A DNA stretch of 64,000 nt from a virus, in the IMG/VR virus record IMGVR_UViG_3300045988_120820, positions 72,335 to 136,334 of that record; one strand, given 5' to 3'. Position numbers and translations under genes: made by a program. Under the pieces are notes generated by a model. That model did not search any database and had not been told where the DNA came from. It saw only the letters and a program-made list of their open reading frames with translations. The stretch's first letter is position 1; every line of letters starts with the position of its first letter. Positions 15,201-38,134 of this stretch are shown here, in pieces.

Positions 15201-16194
15201 TGTCGTCCATCAATCGATTAACCAAATCTTTTACTTTGTCTGGTAAATTACTATCTTCTAAAGTGGCTTTAACTTCTTTGATGTTGTAAACCATTTTTCC
15301 GTCTTTTTCTACTGTATCAAGACCACTTAAATCTTGAAGAAAATTATTGTAAGCGTCCCATGTTGCCATTAAATCTTTAGTTTCTTTATCTGTCATGTTT
15401 ATGTTTTTACCAAAAGAACGTAAATAAGCATCCATAGCATTTTGAGCCATTTTAGCACTTTCTGGTAACTCTACCATACTTCTAGCTACATCTTCATTTA
15501 CTCCCCATAATTTGGCTAAAGAAGGGATTAATTTTTCAATTCCTTGTTCATAAGCAGTAATGTCACTTGTGTCTGCGTATGCTTGTTGTAAATCATACAA
15601 TTTTCTTATTGATTTATCTATTGTTCCAGAATCAAACATTTTTTTCATATTCGATTCAAATAAACTTTGTTGTCCACTTGTTAATTGAGAAAAATCTAAT
15701 CCATTTACAACTTCTATCATTTCAGATTGAACGTCACTTTTTAATTTACTGAAACCATCACCTATAGACAAAGAGTTTACTATACTTTTATTAATTTTTT
15801 GAGATTCGGCACTTATTTTTGCTTCAGCATCTACAACTGCCTCTTTAGCACTAGCATACGTATCACTTAATTTAGCAAGCCTTTCTGAATAATCTTCTAG
15901 CCATGCTGAATCACCTGTTTGAACAAATGTGTTATTAAGTTCATCTTTCTTTTTTCTGATGTTTTCTATTTGTCTATTATATTCCTTAATTGCTTGTTTA
16001 TTGAAAGCCCCATCTTTACCAGCAAATCCTTGTCCTTCATTCATTTTGTCTGTAGCATTTCTTTGTTGGTCTTTATATTCTTGATTCAGAGCCTCTTGTT
16101 GTTTCTTGATTAATTTATCATATTTTGCAATTAATTTATCAATATCTCCACCCATCGATAAAATCGGGTTATTATCTTTATCATACAATATCTT
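12232..16194 (-). CDS. tape measure exon 5
   Basis: ORF 12232..16197 has only a TTG 'start' inside intron-like sequence and no SD. Coiled-coil rich. Frame joins ...EDIVLG|KILYDKDNNP. Confidence 0.8.
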   Translation of the reverse strand, partial: KILYDKDNNPILSMGGDIDKLIAKYDKLIKKQQEALNQEYKDQQRNATDKMNEGQGFAGKDGAFNKQAIKEYNRQIENIRKKKDELNNTFVQTGDSAWLEDYSERLAKLSDTYASAKEAVVDAEAKISAESQKINKSIVNSLSIGDGFSKLKSDVQSEMIEVVNGLDFSQLTSGQQSLFESNMKKMFDSGTIDKSIRKLYDLQQAYADTSDITAYEQGIEKLIPSLAKLWGVNEDVARSMVELPESAKMAQNAMDAYLRSFGKNINMTDKETKDLMATWDAYNNFLQDLSGLDTVEKDGKMVYNIKEVKATLEDSNLPDKVKDLVNRLMDDNEFSLDDMELTAKLSQIYVEDDEETRNNLIQDVQNLVDKQFGKGKIDVGKLFVTGEYAVSDDDKKKIDDAFASFKQFDGKDEIVKTLRANIENTDQVENYAKLMDNLRGKDKNIETFFKNNIQDLSELKSYEDMIQWVFDHPEAVTSCHINVLGEDTIKTAKAEIDSLLNEKDEKDIKVKIDKALAQGDIATVMDLIGQLPAEKQIEVGVALSNALDELGTVDAIQLKNKVVDVTVMAFQALQQLYALQGLKIPEKYIKIISNSADISNKLDSLKQKINEIPRSISIMATLSYTEKGKSKVPHSGKGKSVMWGDSIGEFSNIEDNPYSVEQLSATPMVTSQPVVTANDISTTNSTSDSSGGISTYATRDFNSIGDIETALTPISLEYQNVLDMIEYSVELFKELQYRIETVTKKTSLLDKQMEKAVGTEKIKYLKQKNKLLEEQAKLQKEYYDDLISERETLQQKLQKEGFKFNEDGNMTNYEEKLLAMQKEYKRLQDVADKSSKSSSSSGSSNNTASDKASKYKEELDKLTNLANKYYDIQQSDIFSCEEQWQEMKNTIKENNDEIEKLTREDKLYKFSNAITQLKNQFDILGNKIDIIDVKLENSNGVDTIKLTEEKLKLMNEQLSKQMDLMTNMKNKIPTYQESLSKYGFTFDVEGNVSNIDEVLNSFQNSEDLEKVNDLLEEYTSLINDDLADAEKNYADLQKNIVDLQKDKLNKVKDIEDKITDVIKDEIDKRKDAIEKQYDKEKELIEKRRDDYKKQRDEDDYAKNLKEQQDEIDTINKKIELAKRDNSMSGKSKLKELLDDLKEAQDKLDETVQNKVDEDIDNMFQEQLDALDKKKEDMTQNIDDTYTPQKIAQMVKDAMMTNTFTDLNGNITNLQDKLIDFAETSGDAVGILGDSIKTELCDNLEVALDYLKDYKDIFKELGFKQLGNVNYKEGMNKDTTSKTLNVGDININVEGSVDENVLDDMQEMINKTLKDIVNKSL

Positions 16195-19100
16195 CAATTA
16201 GGTTCGCTACTTCCTAATCAGTTCTCTTATGAACTTCTCTATGTTTCCATAGAAGTTGAGACTATATCTTTACCTTTATTAAAGGCACATACCACTTCCA
16301 CTCGCTTGAGTGTACGAGCATTTGCTCTAGTCGTTGAAGTTTACTTTTATTAATTGCTTAAATTATATTTTTTTGAAAATTCAATACTATTTTTTAATCT
16401 ATTAGGTTTATATTTCATATCAAATTTATAATAAAATTCTTTTGGTATATATTTTAAATAAGGTCTGACTACATCAAAAAATTTTCTAAAATTTGTAGCG
16501 TTAAAATACAATCTATAATATGTTCTATTCTTATATCCTTTGATTCCAGATTTATCAGTATGTATTTTTAAATCTATATCAAACCTTCTCTTAAACATGT
16601 CTTTAATTCTTACATTATCTTTATAACTGAAGCCTTGAGTATTTAGATACCCAAATCTTTTAGCATAATTATTTTTAAACGAAACATGCCAGTTTCCATC
16701 ATCTAAAAACCAAAGTAATAAACCAAAAGAATTTATATTGTTTAAAACTGTGTCTGATAAATATTTTTTACCATTTAATAATGTATTCTTTTTAAATTCT
16801 TCTTTATTAGGAATTTTTATTCTAACATTAGAATAAATATAAATACCAAATGTTGTATTTTTTTCATAATCATATTTAGAATGAGTGTCTATTCCTAAAG
16901 AACTAAACGTATATTCTAACCATTCAACATAAAATCTTTGTTTATTGGTATGGACACAACGAATATACTCTCCATTGATATCACCATCCCCTAACATCAA
17001 TCCATATAAACTATTTATTATTTCTTTCTCATTTTTAATCATGTGAATACTCACTCCTTTTTTTATTTTCGCAATTAACTTAAAGTCTTACCTGCTGATT
17101 GCCCAATCCTTAAACTTTTTAAAACCATCACGCTCATCATTACTGATTACGTTGTGGTATTAAGGCTCTAAGGGGTTTCCAGCAATTCAATATGTTTTCT
17201 AATAATAATTTCTTATTATAGGGGCTATTTATTAACCCAAGACAATATCTTCACCACAAATATCAATTATTTGTTGTTGTAACTCTTTAAATCTTTCTTG
17301 TTGTGCAGAAGTTTTATCTACTGTATCGTATAATTTTTTATATTCATCTCTAATATTGGATAAATTTGTTTTTGCTTTTGTTGAGCTAGTTACTTTATTA
17401 TTTAAATTGGTTATATTTTCTGCATTTTTTTCTAAAGCGTCATTAAGTTTATTAGCCTCGTCTGTAAAATGTTGAATAACTTTACCTATTCCCCATGATA
17501 CGAGCATACCTATACCCATATTTATAACGCCCATAGCTAAATTCATAGCTCCTAAAGCTACTTTTGTTCCTAATGCTTTAGCCTCTACACCTGCTAAAGC
17601 ACTTCTAACTGCTGTTAATCCAGAGGCAAATACTCCAGATGATTGACGAGCCTCTTTAAATGAAGTACCTATCCCTTTTATTACATTCCAAGATTTTCCA
17701 AGATAACTAGCTTGAAATCCTTCTTTTATTGTTGCAAAGAATCCTGGATTAGCAGTCCCAACCATCGTAGCACTAGATGCTTGTCGTGTTGCAGTGGCTT
17801 GTCCTTCTAGTGCAGTAGTTGTACTCAAAGCTTCGGCTTTTAATCTTCTTTCTTGATTAATTAATGCTTCAAATCCACCACTTTGATTAAATTTTATTGA
17901 TTCAAAAATACCAGAAATTGCCCCTGCTATTACGGGTAATCCTACACCCATGTCATCTATATACTTAACAAATTTATCTAACATGTCTAAAGCACTTATA
18001 CCAATGTCTAAAAATCCTTTTGCCGTATTTCCACTTACAGCTGTATTGACTATACTTCTCCATTTTTCTTGGAGTAATGTAAGTTTCCCTTGCACGGAGT
18101 CTATATATCTTGCATTCGTTATCTTCACATAAATTCGCTACATTTACGCAGTTCTCTTATGAACTTCCTATACTTTCATATAGAGTCGAGACTATTTCTT
18201 CACCTTCAGCATTATCTGTTAAGGGCAAAGTATTTCCACTATCAATAGCTTATAGTGTACGGTTTCACAACCTAGTCGTTGAAAGTTTAATCTAATTTAT
18301 TAATTATTTTTTAAATCTTTTAAATGATTTTTAATTATATTAGATTAATACTTGCATGAACACCCATTGTTTAAGATTACTTAGGATTTAACCATATAAT
18401 CATCCTTACGTTTTTTCTACTTTCGTACCTTCACGTTTATTGTTACCAATTACGTTGTGGTGTAAGGCTTTAGGGATTACCTGCTTTTAACTTTGTGTCC
18501 TACGCACATTTCTGTACGTACGGAGAATGTTGTTTCTCTTTCATTGAACTTCCGAAAGTGTCGCCATTTTCGTACTCTTTCATAAATTTTTCTGCTTGAC
18601 TCCAGTTACTCATTATTGCTGTGAAAACGTTCAGTTGGTTTTTCGGTTTGTTATCGTAAAGGCTTTTTATCCTCTACTTCTTATAGTTTCCTATAAGCCC
18701 AGCATACATTTTCACCCTCGTTTAACGTTAGGTATTGATGGTTGCAAACCCATCTCAAGTATTACTATATAATACTGTGGAGGAGGCTCGTGATAGGATT
18801 ATTGCTAACAATATCGCTCACCTATTATGCGTTACGGATGTTCTCTGTTAAGACACCCTCGGTATTACCATATCCGTTAAGGACTTAGGCTCTCTTACCA
18901 CCTTAATCTTTCGATTTAGTTGACCGATACACCCCTCTAATCTACATGATATTTCTACCATGAGTGGCATAATATTTAATTAATAGTTTATATTTTTTAA
19001 ATTTTCTTTCTAAATATATATTTGAATTTTTATAAATATAATCACAAAAAGTTAATACATCTTCTTTTTTATTAGTTACTAATCTAAAGATATCATTGGA

Positions 19101-22100
19101 TTTACAATTCGTTTTGTAAATTCTCCCCAATGGAATATTTGTATTCAAACATATACCTTCTAGGATATTTTTAGTTCCTAATATTTCTATACTTTGATGT
19201 TTTTCAGTACAAACAATACAACCATCTCCATCTAAATACCCTCTTATAAAATGAGGTGTTAATTCTTTAGGAACTTGTTCTTCTGTTGGAAAAGTTAATG
19301 TCAATGATTTTCTAGGAGTACATCCTAATTTAATTAAATCTTGCTTCATTTTTTTATTTTTAAAAGATACTCTACATCTAAAATCATCTACAATTAATTT
19401 TCCCTCAAACCCTATAAAATCTTTGAATTTTTGAAGATGCTCTTTATCTGATAATTGTAAAGAAAGTTCTATATCATTTCTTTTACCACTTGAAATACTT
19501 CCATCGGCATATAAAAATCCTAACCAATAAGCTTTTTCTTCAGAGTCTATTTTCTCAAATATATCATCGTTTATCTTCTTTTTATGTGGCATAATATTAA
19601 CTTTTATACCTTGGTTTTTTAAATAAGAAGAAAATCTACTTCTTGAAATTTTTAATTCTTTACTGATTCTAGCTGTAGATACTCCTTCTAAATACATTTT
19701 TAAACCCAAATTATATTTTTCTAAAGTTTCCTCCATCATAATATTCACCCCCTTTTTATTCTTTCCTTTATTAATTATTTTTAAACCTTTTAAACTATTA
19801 ATTTATATACCTGCAATCGCTTCAGCTACAGAAGATTTACTTTTTTTATCTAATTTATCCCACATTCCTGCTATATCGCCCATGATGTCATAGAAATCTC
19901 TAACTTGGCCATTTGAATCGTGCATATCAATTCCAGTTATTTTTTCTATGGCCATTGCTGTTTTATTCATTGAAATACTCGAATTGTTATTAACGTTAAG
20001 TTTTTTATCTTAACCTCTGGAAGTTTCCTTCATTTTCATCGATTGGTCATTTCCAATCCAGTCTGGCGTACATATTCCATCTCATATAAGACAGTCGGAG
20101 ACTCTTGGAGGAATTATATTCTATTTAAATAGTTTCATCCTCTACGCTCTACATTATTGAATAAGTTTTAATTTATTCAATTAACTCGGTATTAACTTAT
20201 CTTTATTAATTATTTTTAAGACTTAGTCTTTCTTACCATATGTATTACTACATATATGACCGAATTTCCCCGAACCGGCAATATTATTTACCGTCTTTAG
20301 CACTTGTTTTCCAACCTGCCATATTTTGCATGATTGTTTTTAAACCATTACCTAATTTACTTGCATTTTGTAATGGTTCTTGCCCTGCAATTATAATAGC
20401 AACCAACTCTTGCATACTAACACCTAATGTTTTCGCAACAGAAGATGAACGCATCATTGCTTCAGATACGTCTTTACCTGTAACAGCATAGTTGTTGTTT
20501 GCATAGTTGACCATATCCATCATTTGCATCATTTTGGTAGTTTCTTTGGTGTTACCTTTGACTTTCATTGTGACTTTATCTAATGAGTTTGCAACACCAC
20601 CATAAGATGCTAATGTTGATTTCAAGTATTTATCTGCATCTGCTTGGCTTGTATCTATAACGTTGGCAAACATAGATGCATTTTTAGCATATTGTAAAGC
20701 TTTACTAACATTATGGAAACCAGATTGTAATGCCTCGGCAGTGGAATCAATTATATCAATACTACTTCTGGCAACCTCTTGACCTGCCTCACTTGCTTTT
20801 TGAGTTAACCAATCTAATTGCTTGGCTGTTCCTGTAAAGGTGTCTGGTGCAACTTTTAATAATTTTTTAATAGCCGTATCTGTATCAATAATAGTACTAG
20901 GAATTGAAGATATACCTTGAGTGATAAGTCTACCAATCATATTTGGTATTGAATACATTGATAACATAGAGGCTAAATTACTGAAAAATCCAGACGTTTT
21001 CTTGGTTGCATTTCCTAATATATTCATTGCTTGAGTTGCACTTCTAGCACCATTAGCAACTCCGTTTATACCATTTCCGTTAATATTAGATAGACTACTA
21101 GAAAAAGTACTTACGTCTTTAGTCAGTGCTTTTAACTCTGCGTCTCTATCTTTTAAATTACTTATACTAGCTATAGTTTGTAGTCTTTGTTTAAATTCTT
21201 CTACCTTAGATGATGAAGCTCCTAATTCTTGACATCTTCTTGTTAAGTTTGTTAAATCTTGAGATACTTTATTAAAATCTGCATCAAATTTTACATTAGC
21301 TCTTTTAGTAGAAATTTCACTTTCAAATTGTTTATATTTATTTTCACATTGTGCTATTTTATCTTTTAAACCATCAAATTCAGCTTTAGCACCTTCTGTA
21401 TTAGGGTCTATATTTCGTAATTTTGATTGATATTGTTCTATTTGAGTTATTAGTTCTTGTATTCCAGATGTATTAGCAAATTTACTCGTTCCTAATTCAG
21501 CAAGTTTAGCTTTAAGAGATTCTAACTTAGCAACAGATGTATTTATCTTATCGGTGAATGTAATTGAACCATTCAATCCTTTTAATGACACCGACACATT
21601 ACTAATCTCTGCATTTAAATTATGTATTTGTTCATATGCCTTGTCAGATTTTAATATTTGACTTAAATCAGCACCTTTAACATTATTGATTTTATTTTGA
21701 AGTTCTTGAAGTTGTCCCATCTGTGAACTTGTTAAGTTTTTATTTTTGAACATATTATTAATTTGTTCAGAGGTATTATTAGCCTTTTGTTGAATTTTAT
21801 CAAATGAACTTATTAAATCTCTACTTATATCTATATTAGATTTATTTTTTAAGTTGTCCATTTTTTGTGCAGTAGATTGCATCTCACTGTTAATTTTTGA
21901 TAACTTAGATTCTAACTCGTTATAAGCTTGAGTATTTATAGTTTTAGACATTTGTTTTTGAAGTGATTCTGATTGTTTTTGTAAAACTTTATATTTAGCT
22001 ATAGTATTATCTAATTCTTTATTACCTGTAGAAGTCTTAGTAGAACCACTGCCAAATAAATTTTTTTGCACGTCTTTACTTAAAGAATTTATTTCTTTTA

Positions 22101-34835: not shown

Positions 34836-34871
34836 CTAAATTAAATAAAGCACTACCAACAAAGTAGTGCT
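34836..34871 (-). terminator. rho-independent terminator after the major capsid gene
   Basis: AGCACTAC/GTAGTGCT stem followed by TTATTTAATTT on the - strand. Confidence 0.7.
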
Positions 34872-34895: not shown

Positions 34896-36306
34896 TTAGT
34901 TTTGTATTTTTATTATAGCGTAAGTAGAAGCTATAGCTACACCTAAATGTACCATACGGTTCATTTCCATTTCGATTTGATAATCTTTTCTAGCTCCAGT
35001 AGTATCTTCGTTTAATTCTACATCGCCTAATCTTCGCATAAGGTCGTTATTCTTATACCGTTCTCTAAGGAACTGCTCATGCTTTCACATGAGAGGAGAC
35101 TATTTCTTCACCCTATATTTATAGGGGCAACCCACTTCCACCCACTTGGGTGTACGAACTTGCGTTCTAGTCGTTGGAGTTTTTCCTCGTTATATTATAA
35201 ATTTATTTATAACAGGGGAACTTACCTGCATGAACAGGGATTGTAATGAATTTAATCATTTAGTGTTTAGGATTTAACCATGCACCATCTCTACGTTTTT
35301 TCTACTTTCGTGCCGTTACGTTTTAGTTTTCACTATCCGCTTTGGTGTAGAGCTTTACCCATTACCTGCAATTCAAGTTGTGTCCTATACCGATTGCTCG
35401 ATATACGAGGCGTTAAGCTACGTTTAGCTCGTTACCTTCATATCCTAATTTTACAATTGACTCACCGGCTGGTAGTAAAATTAAGTATTTATCTTCTATA
35501 TCAAATTTACCTACTTCTTTATCATAATAGTTTGGTAATGGAACTAATGGAGTACCTTCAAACACTCTAGTATAACCATAATTCCTTCTATCATCTTTTT
35601 CTGCGTCAGATAAGAAAGTAGCATCAGTTTTTACATGAGCTAATGCTGATTTAGTACCTAATATTTGTACTTCTGCACCTGTATAGTCAGAAACTTTAGC
35701 TATCATTTCTCTTAATGTTTCTGCTAAAGCAGTATCTGGAGTAGCCTTGCATAAATTTGGATTTCCGGCAGTATCATAAGCCCCATATAAAGTTTTAGTT
35801 ACTAAAGTACATATTTTTTTATCAAAAGATTTAGAAACTCTTTCTACGAATAATGTCCAATCTATAGCACCTTTTAAGAAATCGAACATTTCTGCATAGA
35901 TTTTGATACCTAGTCTAAAACCTTTAGTATCAACTTTTCTATCAAAAATTCTTTGTCTATGAACAGTCTTGACACCAGTAGCCATTAAACTAACTTTAAA
36001 TAATTCATCATTTTGTACTAAATATTCTTTTTTATCACCTAAGTCGAATGTTTCAACATCAACTAAATCTCCATAAGATTCCATAGTTATTTCATTATGT
36101 GTTACTGTTATTAATTCTTCTAATAATTCAAATACAATAGTACCATTTCTATCTAACCATCTTTTATATTTAGATTTCTTTTCTGGTAATGGTTCTACTT
36201 TTTCAAATATCATATTTCTGATTATATCAGATGCTTCTTTTTTAGAATAATTACATACTCCATTATGTAAATCTACTATCATTTGTCTAACATCGTTATC
36301 TATCAT
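34896..36306 (-). CDS. major capsid protein, split gene (exon 1 35416..36306, exon 2 34896..35036)
   Basis: The 297-aa ORF ends ...GYEGNELNVA*. A hand-translated 46-aa continuation (RRLGDVELNEDTTGARKDYQIEMEMNRMVHLGVAIASTYAIIKIQN) lies beyond a structured 379-nt insert and has no SD of its own. Confidence 0.7.
35037..35415 (-). mobile_element. group I-like intron (family alpha), ORF-less, in the major capsid gene
   Basis: Alignable with TMP introns C and D. GAAA-capped hairpin at ~35074..35097 with compensatory changes. The 3' end ...CCTTATG is aligned with ...CCTAATTG of D. The 5' site could instead lie after GGT at 35434. Confidence 0.75.
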
Positions 36307-36345
36307 TATTTATAACCTCCTAATTTTATTAATTGTTTTTTGATT

Positions 36346-36855
36346 TTAATAGAATAATATTTTAACCATATCTCTACCTTGTACTGTAAGTACTTCTACA
36401 ACTTCACCAACTATTCTTTTAGCTCCTGTTTCACCAACACCTGGAGCAGTGTATTTTTTAAGATTATGTGAACTAGCTTTAACAGTTAATTGGTCTCCTA
36501 CGGCAACAGTTTCGTCTATAAGTGTTTTTTCTATAGTGACAACCATTCCTTTATGTAAAAAATAACCTCTCACAGGGTTTCCTGCTTCTGTATCTGGATA
36601 ATCTCCATGATTCCACATATCTCTTTTATCATATCTATGACCGTCAGATGCTACCATAGCTAATATTTTATTAGCGTCATCTTCTAAATCAGTTACTTCA
36701 TAACATTCACCTTCTGCCCCTATATCAGATACTTTAGCTAAAGTATTATCAGCAAGTCCTTTTACTAATACTACTTCTCCATTTTTTAATGCTTCATCTT
36801 CGCATATTATTGATTTGGCAAAATTATCTTCTACATAATTTAATATTTGTATCAT
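36346..36855 (-). CDS. hypothetical head-module protein
   Basis: 169-aa ORF between the scaffold and capsid genes. Confidence 0.5.
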   Translation of the reverse strand: MIQILNYVEDNFAKSIICEDEALKNGEVVLVKGLADNTLAKVSDIGAEGECYEVTDLEDDANKILAMVASDGHRYDKRDMWNHGDYPDTEAGNPVRGYFLHKGMVVTIEKTLIDETVAVGDQLTVKASSHNLKKYTAPGVGETGAKRIVGEVVEVLTVQGRDMVKILFY

Positions 36856-36880: not shown

Positions 36881-38134
36881 TTATTTTTTGTTTTTCCATT
36901 TTTCCAATCTACCACCGTAAGGTGCATTAGAATCTGTAAATTCTTCATTTGGATTTATTATACCTACTGAATTAGTTTTTCCATTTTTAGGTTTACTAAA
37001 TGATTGAGTTTCTCTAACTTGATTAGCCCACATTATAGCTAATTTTCCTTCATATTCTTCTTTAGATATTTCATGTTTTAATGCTTTATCTTGAAGTGCT
37101 TTAGCATCTTCTGTATCTAAAGAATATTTTTCAGTTATAGAATCAATTTCTAATTTAAATTGTTTAGCATCGCTATCAGCTTTAAATTGTTTTAATTCTT
37201 CATAATCACTCATGCTTTCTAATTGAGCTTTTAATTCTTCGTATTCAATTTTTAATTGGTCAAAAGCAGTTTTTAATTGTGTATATTTTTCATCTTCTGT
37301 GTTATCTTCAACAGAATGATTTTCCTTATCTTTATCTTCTTTCTTTTCTTCAGAATCATCTTGAGAACATTCTTCTTTTTGTTCTTCTTCATCCGGAGTG
37401 AAATCTTCTTGTTGAGTTCCCTCTTGATTTTCAAACTCTTCAGTTTCTTGAACTTCTTGATTTTCAAACTCTTTATCCATTGTTTCACCTCCCTTTTCTA
37501 AAGAATAAATTTTCTTCATTTCTTCTAATTCAGTTTTAACATCTCCACAAGTGAACAGAGATAAGTTAGCTCCTGCCATAGCAGGTTGAACACCTACACC
37601 AAGCATTGTTATACCTAAAAAAGTAAAATCAGTTATTTCAAAGAATCCATCTTCTCTAAAGCTGAAATCGTCAACATTTATTTCCATAGATACTTCTAAT
37701 GCACCATCGTTAGAATCTAATACATCAAGTAATTGTTGGGAATACTCCCTCCATATTAATGCTGTGCAAGATAAATATTTCTTACCGTCTTTTTCTACTT
37801 GTGTAATTATAGTATCTTCTGGAACGAATCCATAAGCTTTTTCAAGATATATTAACTGATAATCGTAACCATCTGGAGTATCAGTAGCCTCCACTTTAGT
37901 ATCATGTCCACCTAAAACCCATTCGTCATCTTCATTTTTATAAACATGAGCTAATAAGGGTATACCTCTAATACTTTTTTCAGCACATTTCATTTGTGTT
38001 TCTGAATCAAACCAAGAACCATTTAAATTATCTTGGTCGTGACATACAAGTATTCTACATCCTACAAATCTACTATCACTTGAAGATTTAAAAACTTCCA
38101 TTTCACTATATAATTTTAAATGTTTATTTCCCAA
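36881..38134 (-). CDS. putative prohead protease-scaffold fusion protein
   Basis: The N-terminal ~200 aa has a prohead-protease-like pattern (...IRGIPLLAHVY...LEVSMEI...). An acidic linker and a coiled-coil C-terminus are typical of scaffolds. Confidence 0.4.
   Translation of the reverse strand: MGNKHLKLYSEMEVFKSSSDSRFVGCRILVCHDQDNLNGSWFDSETQMKCAEKSIRGIPLLAHVYKNEDDEWVLGGHDTKVEATDTPDGYDYQLIYLEKAYGFVPEDTIITQVEKDGKKYLSCTALIWREYSQQLLDVLDSNDGALEVSMEINVDDFSFREDGFFEITDFTFLGITMLGVGVQPAMAGANLSLFTCGDVKTELEEMKKIYSLEKGGETMDKEFENQEVQETEEFENQEGTQQEDFTPDEEEQKEECSQDDSEEKKEDKDKENHSVEDNTEDEKYTQLKTAFDQLKIEYEELKAQLESMSDYEELKQFKADSDAKQFKLEIDSITEKYSLDTEDAKALQDKALKHEISKEEYEGKLAIMWANQVRETQSFSKPKNGKTNSVGIINPNEEFTDSNAPYGGRLEKWKNKK

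What the first reader, a model, noticed from the sequence alone, without database searches (positions are those of the whole stretch)
34896..36306. Major capsid gene interrupted about 46 codons before its end by an ORF-less intron
The 297-aa capsid ORF stops at 35413. After 379 nt of structured sequence, a 46-codon frame follows (RRLGDVELNEDTTGARKDYQIEMEMNRMVHLGVAIASTYAIIKIQN, ending at 34896). It has no SD or start codon and is followed by a strong terminator (34836..34871). The insert aligns block by block with TMP introns C and D. Its 3' end (...CCTTATG|CGAAGA) aligns with intron D's ...CCTAATTG|AAGATA. The 5' splice site is ambiguous: either after GCT at 35416 or after GGT at 35434, where GCCU can pair with AGGU.
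Basis: partly seen in the sequence, partly recalled or inferred. Interest (0 to 1): 0.7.

Follow-up and report, generated by a model that had tools for sequence, protein, structure and literature searches.

The report
Self-splicing intron splits phage capsid gene

Summary
The 297-codon ORF (36306..35413, minus strand) and the downstream frame ending at 34896 are two exons of one HK97-fold capsid gene, split by a group I intron.

- Seventeen uninterrupted homologues, up to 80% identical, read ...KLGYEG|DVEL... with no "RRLG".
- The 3' end aligns base for base with the known end of the T4 td intron. That places the terminal G at 35026.

Keeping the reading frame then requires exon 1 to end ...GAAGG (G35435) and the intron to start at U35434. 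The intron is therefore 35434..35026 and the protein has 333 aa, not 337 or 343.

So the 5' splice site follows a G. The usual U·G wobble sits one pair inside the intron, next to an internal loop. This geometry has been shown experimentally only for group B IStrons (BcISt1).

A nearly identical sister intron lies 36 nt upstream in relatives, uses a normal U·G, and supports this register. Splicing itself was not tested. This is a new member of a known kind, with a rare splice-site variant.

The parts
36316..36321 (-). Shine-Dalgarno sequence AGGAGG, 9 nt upstream of the capsid ATG (36306..36304)
   Evidence: Read directly from the sequence; coordinates.
35435..36306 (-). Capsid exon 1, 872 nt: codons 1-290 plus the first two bases (GG) of Gly291
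   Evidence: Matches PHROG 4088 positions 6-293. Intron-less alleles read gaaggt|gatgtt. Joining this exon to 35025..34896 gives a 333-aa ORF.
35026..35434 (-). Group I intron, 409 nt, td-like (IA2 architecture), no ORF. It begins UAAC and ends ...GAAGAUUAGG.
   Evidence: Rfam Intron_gpI, 48.7 bits, E = 2.5e-11. Covariation over 68 pairs. Boundaries from alleles with and without the intron and from alignment to T4 td.
35408..35437 (-). P1 and its extension. AGG|U (35437..35434) pairs with the guide sequence GCCU (35411..35408). The cleavage-site pair is G35435-C35410 and the +1 pair is U35434.G35411. A 3x3 internal loop (AAC/AAC) follows, then the hairpin GAGCUA/UAGCUU (35430..35425 with 35420..35415). 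The in-frame stop TAA is at 35415..35413.
   Evidence: Predicted in the minimum-energy fold. Compensatory change in L012: exon GAG with guide GCCC. The hairpin variants AAGCUA and AAGUUA keep pairing. The register matches the canonical sister intron in L020.
35386..35405 (-). P2 hairpin, UAUAUCGA-GCAA-UCGGUAUA
   Evidence: 5 of 8 pairs show changes on both sides; 100% of cells paired.
35183..35380 (-). P3 5' strand (35380..35377) and the P4-P5-P6 domain: P4 35370..35365 with 35233..35227, P5 35360..35358 with 35239..35237, P6a 35220..35217 with 35186..35183
   Evidence: Rfam alignment. P5 GGG/CCC is swapped to CCC/GGG in intron C. P6a has several different pair types across the aligned introns.
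35098..35172 (-). Catalytic core, 3' half: P7 GACUA/UAGUC (35172..35168 with 35102..35098), P7.1 (35167..35155), P7.2 (35152..35139), P3 3' strand (35131..35128), P8 (35126..35111)
   Evidence: P7 is invariant in all 8 aligned introns. All 4 pairs of P7.1 are compensated. The block is homologous to many phage group I introns.
35036..35093 (-). P9 (35093..35076), P9.1 (35073..35060) and P9.2 (35058..35036).
   Evidence: 5 of 6 P9 pairs and 4 of 7 P9.2 pairs show changes on both sides. The P9.2 loop AAUAACGAC matches td's AUUAACGAC.
35026..35035 (-). 3' tail GAAGAUUAGG, ending in the terminal guanosine G35026
   Evidence: Aligns with td GAACAUAAUG|, intron D GAAGAUAUUG| and intron C GAAGAUAACG|, whose ends are fixed by intron-less alleles. 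The last G is invariant.
34896..35025 (-). Capsid exon 2, 130 nt: third base of Gly291 (C35025), 42 codons (DVELNED...KIQN) and the stop codon (34898..34896)
   Evidence: Matches PHROG 4088 positions 291-332. Against relatives, 13-15 of about 25 differences fall on third codon positions. The first base is C in most relatives and U in L019, which is synonymous for Gly.
34849..34871 (-). Terminator-like hairpin after the capsid gene
   Evidence: 9-bp stem followed by a T run. A similar hairpin follows the intron-less gene in L006.

Best explanation
The region holds one HK97-fold major capsid gene in two exons, 36306..35435 and 35025..34896 (minus strand), separated by a 409-nt ORF-less group I intron (35434..35026) of the T4 td type.

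How it most likely works:
1. The pre-mRNA folds into the group I core (P1-P9.2).
2. The guide sequence 5'-CGCCU (35412..35408) holds the end of exon 1 (AGG, 35437..35435) in P1.
3. An external guanosine attacks the bond after G35435.
4. The first bases of exon 2 (CG, 35025..35024) then pair with CG (35412..35411) to form P10.
5. The exon 1 end attacks the bond after the terminal G35026.

The product joins ...GAA GG|C GAU GUA... and encodes a 333-aa capsid protein reading ...KLGYEG-DVELNED....

Unspliced RNA would be translated only into a 297-aa truncated protein, ending at the TAA inside the P1 extension.

The unusual feature is that the last exon base is G, paired with C. The conserved U.G wobble is displaced one pair into the intron and abuts an internal loop, as in group B IStrons.

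What is shown and what is inferred:
- Shown: the fold, the homology and the exon boundaries relative to intron-less alleles.
- Inferred: that splicing occurs, that it is self-catalysed, and the exact phosphodiester bonds used.
For: Split gene:
- The PHROG 4088 profile is covered 6-293 by exon 1 and 291-332 by exon 2.
- 77 phage records and 17 metagenomic proteins hold uninterrupted homologues.
- The AlphaFold model of the 333-aa join (pLDDT 71.8) matches only HK97-fold capsids and encapsulins.
- Gene order (417-aa ORF, 169-aa ORF, then this gene) parallels the prohead protease / hypothetical protein / major capsid protein order annotated in Bacillus phage Kirov. I did not test homology of the two upstream ORFs.

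Group I intron:
- Rfam E = 2.5e-11.
- Over 8 related introns, 95.7% of 532 cells are paired, against 30-42% when the partners are slid.
- 33 of 68 pairs changed on both sides, and 0 of 500 shuffles reach the observed value.

3' boundary:
- Homologues lack RRLG.
L019 has T as the first exon base.
- The td 3' end ...CCUUAUCUGAACAUAAUG|CUACCG was verified by restoring the FLGLPFNIASYA stretch of thymidylate synthase, and it aligns to ...CCUUAUGCGAAGAUUAGG|CGAUG.

5' boundary:
- Only ...GAAGG + CGAUG... restores the frame and the 333-aa length of intron-less P0002 and L010.
- The P1 register is supported by a compensatory change in L012.
- The sister intron in L020-L024 has a nearly identical core and is canonical (CCGGU|UAAC...AAAAAG|UGGAG). 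Its wobble G lies 5 nt before P2, the same position as C35410 here.

Precedent:
- BcISt1 and other group B IStrons splice after AGGG|U. Their U-G pair is shifted by one base pair and followed by an internal loop. This was confirmed by RT-PCR (PMC4227781).
Against: - No RNA or protein data were available, so splicing and the exact junction are inferred.
- A purine at the last exon position goes against the almost universal rule. In the Anabaena intron, swapping the T-G pair to G-T at that position abolished activity (PMC12355055).
- The Rfam score is 1.3 bits under the gathering threshold, and the match is missed in whole-window scans.
- The junction base is ambiguous in L019 (U on both sides). 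The assignment there rests on requiring a terminal G.
- No intron-less allele carrying GGC at the junction was found.
Confidence: 0.8

Rival explanations
1. One reading: canonical 5' splice site after U35434 (AGGU/GCCU with U.G) and 3' splice site after G35037, giving a 337-aa protein with RRLG inserted after Gly291.
For: It is in frame in this window and obeys both textbook rules, a last exon U in a U.G pair and a terminal intron G. The joined 337-aa sequence still matches PHROG 4088 in one stretch.
Against: - None of 17 uninterrupted homologues has the four residues, including one that is 80% identical.
- In six relatives with the same intron, G35037 is replaced by A and the 12 nt contain an in-frame TAA.
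- G35037 is paired within P9.2, which is supported by covariation.
- The td, C and D introns all end 10-11 nt beyond P9.2.
Confidence: 0.05
2. Both textbook sites are used (after U35434 and after G35026). The ligated mRNA then carries one extra base, shifts frame and ends as ...EGRCRIKRRYYWS*. Exon 2 would not be translated in frame, or only by a rare alternative event.
For: A U.G wobble and a terminal G are both present at these positions.
Against: - Exon 2 evolves as coding sequence in the DVEL frame: 13-15 of about 25 differences are on third positions, and the amino-acid sequence is conserved.
- It is contiguous with exon 1 in intron-less alleles.
- In L019 this join would give GGU UGA, an immediate stop.
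- The canonical sister intron places the cleavage-site pair one position further in.
Confidence: 0.05
3. The 5' site is canonical (after U35434) and the intron ends one base later, at C35025. The terminal nucleotide would then not be G.
For: It gives the same 333-aa protein (GGU GAU) and matches the GGT seen in intron-less alleles.
Against: - The supposed terminal base varies (C in most, U in L019), as a synonymous third codon position would.
- The preceding G is invariant and aligns with td's terminal G.
- The P7 guanosine-binding helix is unchanged.
- From my own knowledge, no natural group I intron with a terminal pyrimidine is known.
- Intron C in the same genome has no U anywhere near its 5' junction, so splicing after a non-U is needed there in any case.
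Confidence: 0.05
4. The intron no longer splices. The capsid is made as a 297-aa truncated protein, with or without a separate 47-aa peptide started at ATG 35039.
For: There is an in-frame ATG at 35039..35037, and gene callers report the 297-aa product (P0001).
Against: - There is no Shine-Dalgarno sequence before that ATG.
- The ATG is absent and replaced by ATA ... TAA in relatives.
- The ribozyme structure is maintained by many compensatory changes.
- Exon 2 supplies the strands modelled at residues 309-320 and 327-332, and most of strand 285-298, of the HK97-like model.
- All intron-less relatives encode one chain.
Confidence: 0.03

Closest known systems
T4 td (thymidylate synthase) group I intron, subgroup IA2
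   Same: - Same architecture, including P7.1/P7.2 and P9.1/P9.2.
- The 3' region is recognisably homologous: P9.2 loop AUUAACGAC against AAUAACGAC, followed by a 10-11 nt tail ending in G.
- Both introns start UAA.
- The guide sequence GCCU is the same.
- Both sit in a phage protein-coding gene.
   Different: - td splices after U in a U.G pair (UUGGGU|UAAU), whereas the capsid intron splices after G (GAAGG|UAAC).
- td carries the I-TevI ORF; this copy has no ORF.
- The host gene is a capsid gene, not a nucleotide-metabolism gene.
Group B IStrons, e.g. BcISt1 of Bacillus cereus ATCC 10987 (Tourasse et al. 2014, PMC4227781)
   Same: - The last exon base is G (AGGG|U there, GAAGG|U here).
[quoted passage not shown]
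- The boundary was deduced in the same way, by comparison with element-free alleles. For BcISt1 it was then confirmed by RT-PCR.
   Different: - IStrons carry IS200/IS605-type or IS607-type transposase ORFs and move as transposons.
- This intron has no ORF. Its relatives carry homing-endonuclease-type ORFs (LAGLIDADG or zinc-finger/nuclease) in P6.
- I did not test sequence relatedness of the two ribozymes.
Group I introns in major capsid genes of crAss-like phages (Yutin et al. 2021, PMC7886860)
   Same: Group I introns inserted in core structural genes of phages, including the major capsid gene, sometimes several per gene.
   Different: Those phages belong to a different lineage with Bacteroidetes hosts. 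Their introns were recognised through their endonuclease domains, and splice-site details were not analysed in the passages I read.
Sister intron at 'site 2' of the same capsid gene in related phages (L020-L024, IMG/VR)
   Same: The core from P2 to P8 is almost identical. It sits in the same gene, 36 nt upstream, and has the same P1 layout: exon pairs, cleavage-site pair, +1 pair, internal loop, hairpin.
   Different: It has a canonical U.G at the cleavage site (CCGGU|UAAC with guide CAGCC), a different 3' tail (ACGAAUAAAAAG|) and a 237-aa ORF.

Membership tests
Group I intron (Rfam RF00028) | Conserved core helices P3-P8, including the P7 guanosine-binding helix | tested here: met
   The Rfam alignment covers model positions 1-253. 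P3, P4, P5, P6, P7 and P8 are all present. P7 GACUA/UAGUC is invariant in 8 introns and the other helices are supported by compensatory changes.
Group I intron (Rfam RF00028) | Score at or above the curated gathering threshold (50 bits) | tested here: inconclusive
   48.7 bits, E = 2.5e-11 on the 651-nt region. No match appears when the whole window is scanned. This is a curation cut-off rather than a biological feature. Homology to td and covariation supply the missing support.
Group I intron (Rfam RF00028) | P1 formed between the end of the 5' exon and an internal guide sequence | tested here: met
   AGG(U) pairs with (G)CCU and is predicted in the minimum-energy fold. In L012, A-U is replaced by G-C.
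Group I intron (Rfam RF00028) | The last exon base is U, in a U.G wobble pair at the cleavage site | tested here: not met
   Frame, homologues and intron-less alleles require the exon to end in G35435, paired with C35410. The U.G pair (U35434.G35411) is one pair inside the intron. The feature is 'virtually always' present but not absolute: BcISt1, an accepted and experimentally spliced group I element, has the same exception (PMC4227781). I therefore still file this as a group I intron.
Group I intron (Rfam RF00028) | Terminal guanosine as the last intron base | tested here: met
   G35026 is invariant in the alignment of 8 introns. It aligns with td's terminal G and with the ends of introns C and D, which are fixed by intron-less alleles.
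Group I intron (Rfam RF00028) | Excision restores a continuous host gene | tested here: met
   The join gives 333 aa, collinear with intron-less P0002, L010, L011, L013 and L014.
Group I intron (Rfam RF00028) | Guanosine-dependent self-splicing | not testable with these tools
   Needs in-vitro transcription and splicing, or RT-PCR.
Subgroup IA2 (td-like phage introns) | Extra helices P7.1/P7.2 between P7 and P3', plus P9.1/P9.2 | tested here: met
   The hairpins lie at 35167..35155, 35152..35139, 35073..35060 and 35058..35036, all supported by covariation or invariance. The 3' region is homologous to td. I did not run a formal subgroup classifier.
HK97-fold major capsid protein | HK97-like fold and position in the head-gene block | tested here: met
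   The top 50 Foldseek hits are all capsid or encapsulin shells, E about 1e-6, with TM scores of only 0.3-0.5 on a model of pLDDT 71.8. The Kirov homologue is annotated as major capsid protein after portal and prohead protease. The precomputed Pfam assignment is PF27364 (YonB). My own Pfam scan found nothing.
Homing-endonuclease-bearing mobile intron | Endonuclease ORF inside the intron | tested here: not met
   There is no ORF of at least 30 aa on the coding strand within 35026..35434, other than the exon 2 frame. Relatives carry ORFs in the P6 loop: L005 is LAGLIDADG-like, and L012 and L015 have 302-308 aa zinc-finger/RAP-like proteins. The window copy is an ORF-less form.
IStron (group B) | IS200/IS605 or IS607 transposase ORFs at the 3' end of the intron | tested here: not met
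   No ORF in the intron. Only the 5' splice-site geometry is shared.

The most novel reading that the evidence does not exclude
These SPbeta-like and phiCD211-like phages carry a family of td-type group I introns in which the 5' splice site is not set by a U.G wobble.

- The capsid intron cleaves after a G-C pair, with the wobble displaced by one pair.
- Tape-measure intron C (18535..18117) cleaves after GAG with no U.G anywhere in P1 (GAG|AA paired with UUCUC).

The cleavage position would then be set by helix geometry, at a fixed distance from P2. If so, the BcISt1 exception extends to ordinary endonuclease-type mobile introns in essential phage genes.

It would also provide natural, nearly isogenic ribozyme pairs for dissecting how the site is chosen: the capsid intron at this site (after G) against the sister intron at site 2 (after U).
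Probability: 0.7. Interest if true: 0.6.

Novelty: new member of a known kind. Interest (0 to 1): 0.45.

Why it matters
**Annotation.** Gene callers report this capsid protein as a 297-aa truncated product (P0001, a cluster of 106 sequences). A reader working by eye placed both splice sites wrongly. The correct product is 333 aa.

**RNA biology.** Group I introns in phage capsid genes are already known. The 5' splice site is the unusual part. The last exon base is said to be U (rarely C) in thousands of group I introns, and the only documented exception I found is the group B IStrons.

Here the same exception appears in a conventional td-like phage intron. A more extreme case (intron C) sits in the same genome, and a canonical sister intron with an almost identical core sits 36 nt away in relatives. 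That makes the question [quoted passage not shown] testable with natural constructs.

Tried and rejected
- **Rfam scans.** Whole-window scans at the gathering threshold and at E <= 10 found no intron. A 4.4-kb scan over the tape-measure region also found nothing. Only scans of about 0.5 kb detect the capsid intron and intron C. The gap at 19950..20320 ('intron A') gave no match.
- **Database searches with no result.** Megablast of the locus against phage records gave no match. Pfam on both exons and on the join gave no family in my copy.
- **343-aa join** (5' site after 35416): rejected. There is no guide pairing and it gives a 10-residue insertion.
- **Other in-frame pairs of a U-ending exon with a G-ending intron** (U35426 or U35420 joined to G35026): rejected. 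They insert NEL or NELNV, and their P1 would have U-A rather than U.G and no P10. This is my reasoning on the sequence, with the homologue alignment.
- **Search for the predicted ligated junction** (GGWTATGARGGCGATGTWGAAT) as an intron-less allele or transcript. There was no hit in viral contigs. The single metagenome hit is an unrelated gene encoding ...IGYEGDVEFFWG....
- **Covariance model.** I used nhmmer profiles of the two halves instead. They find only the capsid, C and D introns in the window.
Full report
**What is in the sequence.**
On the minus strand, a 297-aa ORF runs from 36306 to 35413, behind an AGGAGG Shine-Dalgarno site. After it comes about 380 nt that is richer in G+C than the flanks (0.36-0.39 against 0.23-0.27). 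Then comes a frame reading (M)RRLGDVELNED...KIQN that stops at 34896, followed by a hairpin-plus-T-run terminator at 34871..34849. The intervening stretch folds better than all 100 dinucleotide shuffles (z = -3.06). One detail differs: the downstream frame does have an in-frame ATG (35039..35037), though no ribosome-binding site.

**It is one gene in two pieces, and it is a capsid gene.**
- The PHROG 4088 profile (332 positions) is matched at positions 6-293 by the 297-aa ORF and at 291-332 by the short frame. A joined sequence matches in a single stretch.
- tblastn finds 77 phage records with an uninterrupted homologue. These include the 130-kb Clostridioides difficile phages of the phiCD211 type (37-41% identity) and Bacillus phage Kirov. 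In Kirov the gene is annotated as major capsid protein and follows the portal, the prohead protease and a small ORF, the same order as in the window.
- An AlphaFold model of the joined protein (pLDDT 71.8) matches only HK97-fold capsid and encapsulin shells in the PDB.

**The insert is a group I intron of the T4 td type.**
- Searched as a 651-nt region, it matches Rfam Intron_gpI over the whole model: 48.7 bits against a gathering score of 50, E = 2.5e-11. Whole-window scans miss it.
- Two relatives lie in the tape-measure gene of the same window: intron C at 18535..18117 and intron D at 17234..16186.
- I aligned eight members of this family: the window's capsid, C and D introns, plus variants from related phages in IMG/VR. 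I scored a hand-drawn group I structure of 68 pairs (P2 to P9.2, with P3 as a pseudoknot) on that alignment.
- 95.7% of cells form standard pairs, against 30-42% when the partners are slid by 1-3 columns. 33 pairs have changes on both sides. No shuffle out of 500 reaches the observed values.
- The structure has P7.1/P7.2 and P9.1/P9.2. Its 3' region is visibly homologous to the T4 td intron.

**Where the 3' splice site is.**
Four results exclude that.
1. All 17 uninterrupted homologues from the large protein collection read ...KLGYEG|D(V/L)... with no such insertion. One of them is 80% identical and 333 aa long.
2. Related 133-140 kb phage genomes carry the same intron at the same place: L008, L009, L012, L015-L019 and L025. 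In six of them (L015-L019, L025) the sequence is ...CTTATACGAAGATAATG C GATGTT.
3. G35037 lies inside the P9.2 stem, which is supported by compensatory changes.
4. I confirmed the td 3' end (...CCUUAUCUGAACAUAAUG|CUACCG) by showing that the join restores the FLGLPFNIASYA stretch of thymidylate synthase. It aligns to ...CCUUAUGCGAAGAUUAGG|CGAUG.

Introns C and D end at the homologous G as well. This is shown directly by intron-less alleles (L041, L045, L047-L050 and L054 for C; L050 for D). The terminal guanosine is therefore G35026.

**Where the 5' splice site is.**
- With exon 2 starting at C35025, only an exon 1 that ends ...GAAGG (G35435) keeps the frame. The join gives a 333-aa protein collinear with the intron-less alleles, which read gaaggt|gatgtt.
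- The first base of exon 2 is C in most relatives and U in L019. That is a synonymous third position of Gly291.
- Exon 2 behaves as coding sequence in this frame: 13-15 of about 25 differences from relatives are on third codon positions.
- Using both textbook sites (after U35434 and after G35026) would add one base and end the protein as ...EGRCRIKRRYYWS*. In L019 it would give an immediate UGA.
- The alternative that keeps U35434 as the last exon base requires a terminal C or U, which varies among relatives.

**The P1 register.**
The pairing is A35437-U35408, G35436-C35409, G35435-C35410 and U35434.G35411. A 3x3 internal loop (AAC/AAC) follows, and then a six-pair hairpin whose 3' strand ends at the in-frame TAA. 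The register is supported in two ways.
- L012 has GAG GG in the exon and GCCC in the guide, which is a compensatory change. The hairpin variants AAGCUA and AAGUUA also keep pairing.
- A sister intron sits 36 nt upstream in the same gene of L020-L024. Its core is almost identical, and its boundaries are canonical: CCGGU|UAAC...AAAAAG|UGGAG, restoring CCG GUU GGA GAA.
- The wobble G of that sister intron lies five nucleotides before P2. This is exactly where C35410 lies here. Its +1 U pairs with the next guide base, as U35434 does with G35411.

The cleavage-site pair in the window is therefore G35435-C35410. The first two bases of exon 2 (CG) can pair with C35412-G35411 to form a short P10. The ligated AGG|CG is then fully complementary to the guide CGCCU.

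**Is that known?**
A U.G wobble at the 5' splice site is described as critical and highly conserved. The last exon base is 'virtually always a U (or exceptionally a C)' in thousands of group I introns (PMC4227781). In the Anabaena intron, reversing the pair abolished activity (PMC12355055).

The same paper on IStrons reports one exception. Group B IStrons such as BcISt1 splice after AGGG|U. [quoted passage not shown] This was deduced from element-free alleles and confirmed by sequencing RT-PCR products. The capsid intron has this same geometry. Group I introns in phage capsid genes are also already known, for example in crAss-like phages (PMC7886860).

**Mobility context.**
The window copy has no ORF. 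In relatives the same intron carries an ORF in the P6 loop.
- In L005 it is a LAGLIDADG-type ORF, behind the same ribosome-binding sequence as the ORF of the window's intron D.
- In L012 and L015 it is a 302-308 aa protein with zinc-finger repeats and a RAP-like domain. The zinc-finger and RAP Pfam hits are all below Pfam's cut-offs.

Alleles with the intron, alleles without it, and alleles with an intron at the second site coexist among otherwise similar genomes. This is the pattern expected of a homing intron that has lost its endonuclease gene here.

**Verdict.**
The intron and the split capsid gene are real. The gene model is exon 1 36306..35435, intron 35434..35026 and exon 2 35025..34896, giving 333 aa.

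The mechanism (guanosine-initiated self-splicing with cleavage after G35435) is inferred from structure, homology and allele comparison, not from RNA data. I put 0.95 on 'group I intron interrupting the capsid gene' and about 0.8 on these exact boundaries. It is a new member of a known kind with a rare, previously documented splice-site variant. It is of moderate interest, mostly to people who work on group I ribozymes and on phage genome annotation.

Noticed in passing
window 18117..18535 (-): Tape-measure intron C (419 nt, ORF-less) appears to have no U.G pair in P1 at all. Intron-less alleles read ATGAAAGA(A/G)|AATGC. All nine intron-bearing alleles examined in relatives, and the window itself, have GAG| before the intron, while six of seven intron-less alleles have GAA. 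P1 is GAG|AA paired with UUCUC, and P10 is AAU paired with AUU. This departs further from the textbook rule than the capsid intron does. Rfam gives only a partial match (31.5 bits).
   Followed up: partly
window 16186..17234 (-): Tape-measure intron D (1049 nt) is canonical (UUGGGU|UAAU...GAAGAUAUUG|UAUGAU, fixed by the intron-less allele L050). It carries a 234-aa LAGLIDADG_2 endonuclease ORF (16350..17054, E = 2.5e-18) looped out of P6.
   Followed up: yes
window 18536..20283 (-): The tape-measure gene seems to be split by two further inserts upstream of C. One is a gap of about 310 nt between the 678-aa ORF (ends 20284) and a 55-aa TMP-like frame (19803..19970). The other holds a 268-aa LAGLIDADG_3/HTH ORF (18942..19748). 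Rfam found nothing in 19950..20320, and nhmmer profiles of the td-like family do not hit either, so their nature is unverified.
   Followed up: partly
L020-L024 (IMG/VR), about 3840..5033 in L020: A second intron insertion site lies in the same capsid gene, 36 nt upstream (between Val and Gly of ...IPV|GESL...). The ribozyme core is nearly identical, but the guide sequence and 3' tail differ, and it carries a 237-aa ORF. This looks like a recent move of one intron between two nearby sites, with the guide sequence retargeted.
   Followed up: partly
L005 1280..1490; L012 and L015 introns: The same capsid intron carries unrelated endonuclease-type ORFs in different relatives. L005 has a LAGLIDADG-like ORF. 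L012 and L015 have zinc-finger repeats plus a C-terminal ...RPDFILP..IWIEYDGEFHY... RAP-like module. This suggests ORF replacement within one ribozyme scaffold.
   Followed up: partly
L006 6553..7695: The intron-less relative (contig SRR14355400_19462) has an IS605 OrfB/TnpB-type gene (Cas12f1-like TNB domain) a few genes downstream of the capsid gene.
   Followed up: no
whole window: Rfam scans of long stretches (64 kb and 4.4 kb) miss all of these introns because of the speed filters. Only sub-kilobase scans recover them. Intron-split genes in this kind of AT-rich phage genome are therefore likely to be under-annotated, as the 297-aa called product P0001 (106 member sequences) shows.
   Followed up: yes
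window 36346..36855 and 36881..38134 (-): The two ORFs upstream of the capsid gene are 169 aa and 417 aa, the second with an acidic, low-complexity middle. They have no Pfam match. They sit where Bacillus phage Kirov has a 507-nt ORF annotated as a hypothetical protein and a 1389-nt putative prohead protease gene.
   Followed up: no
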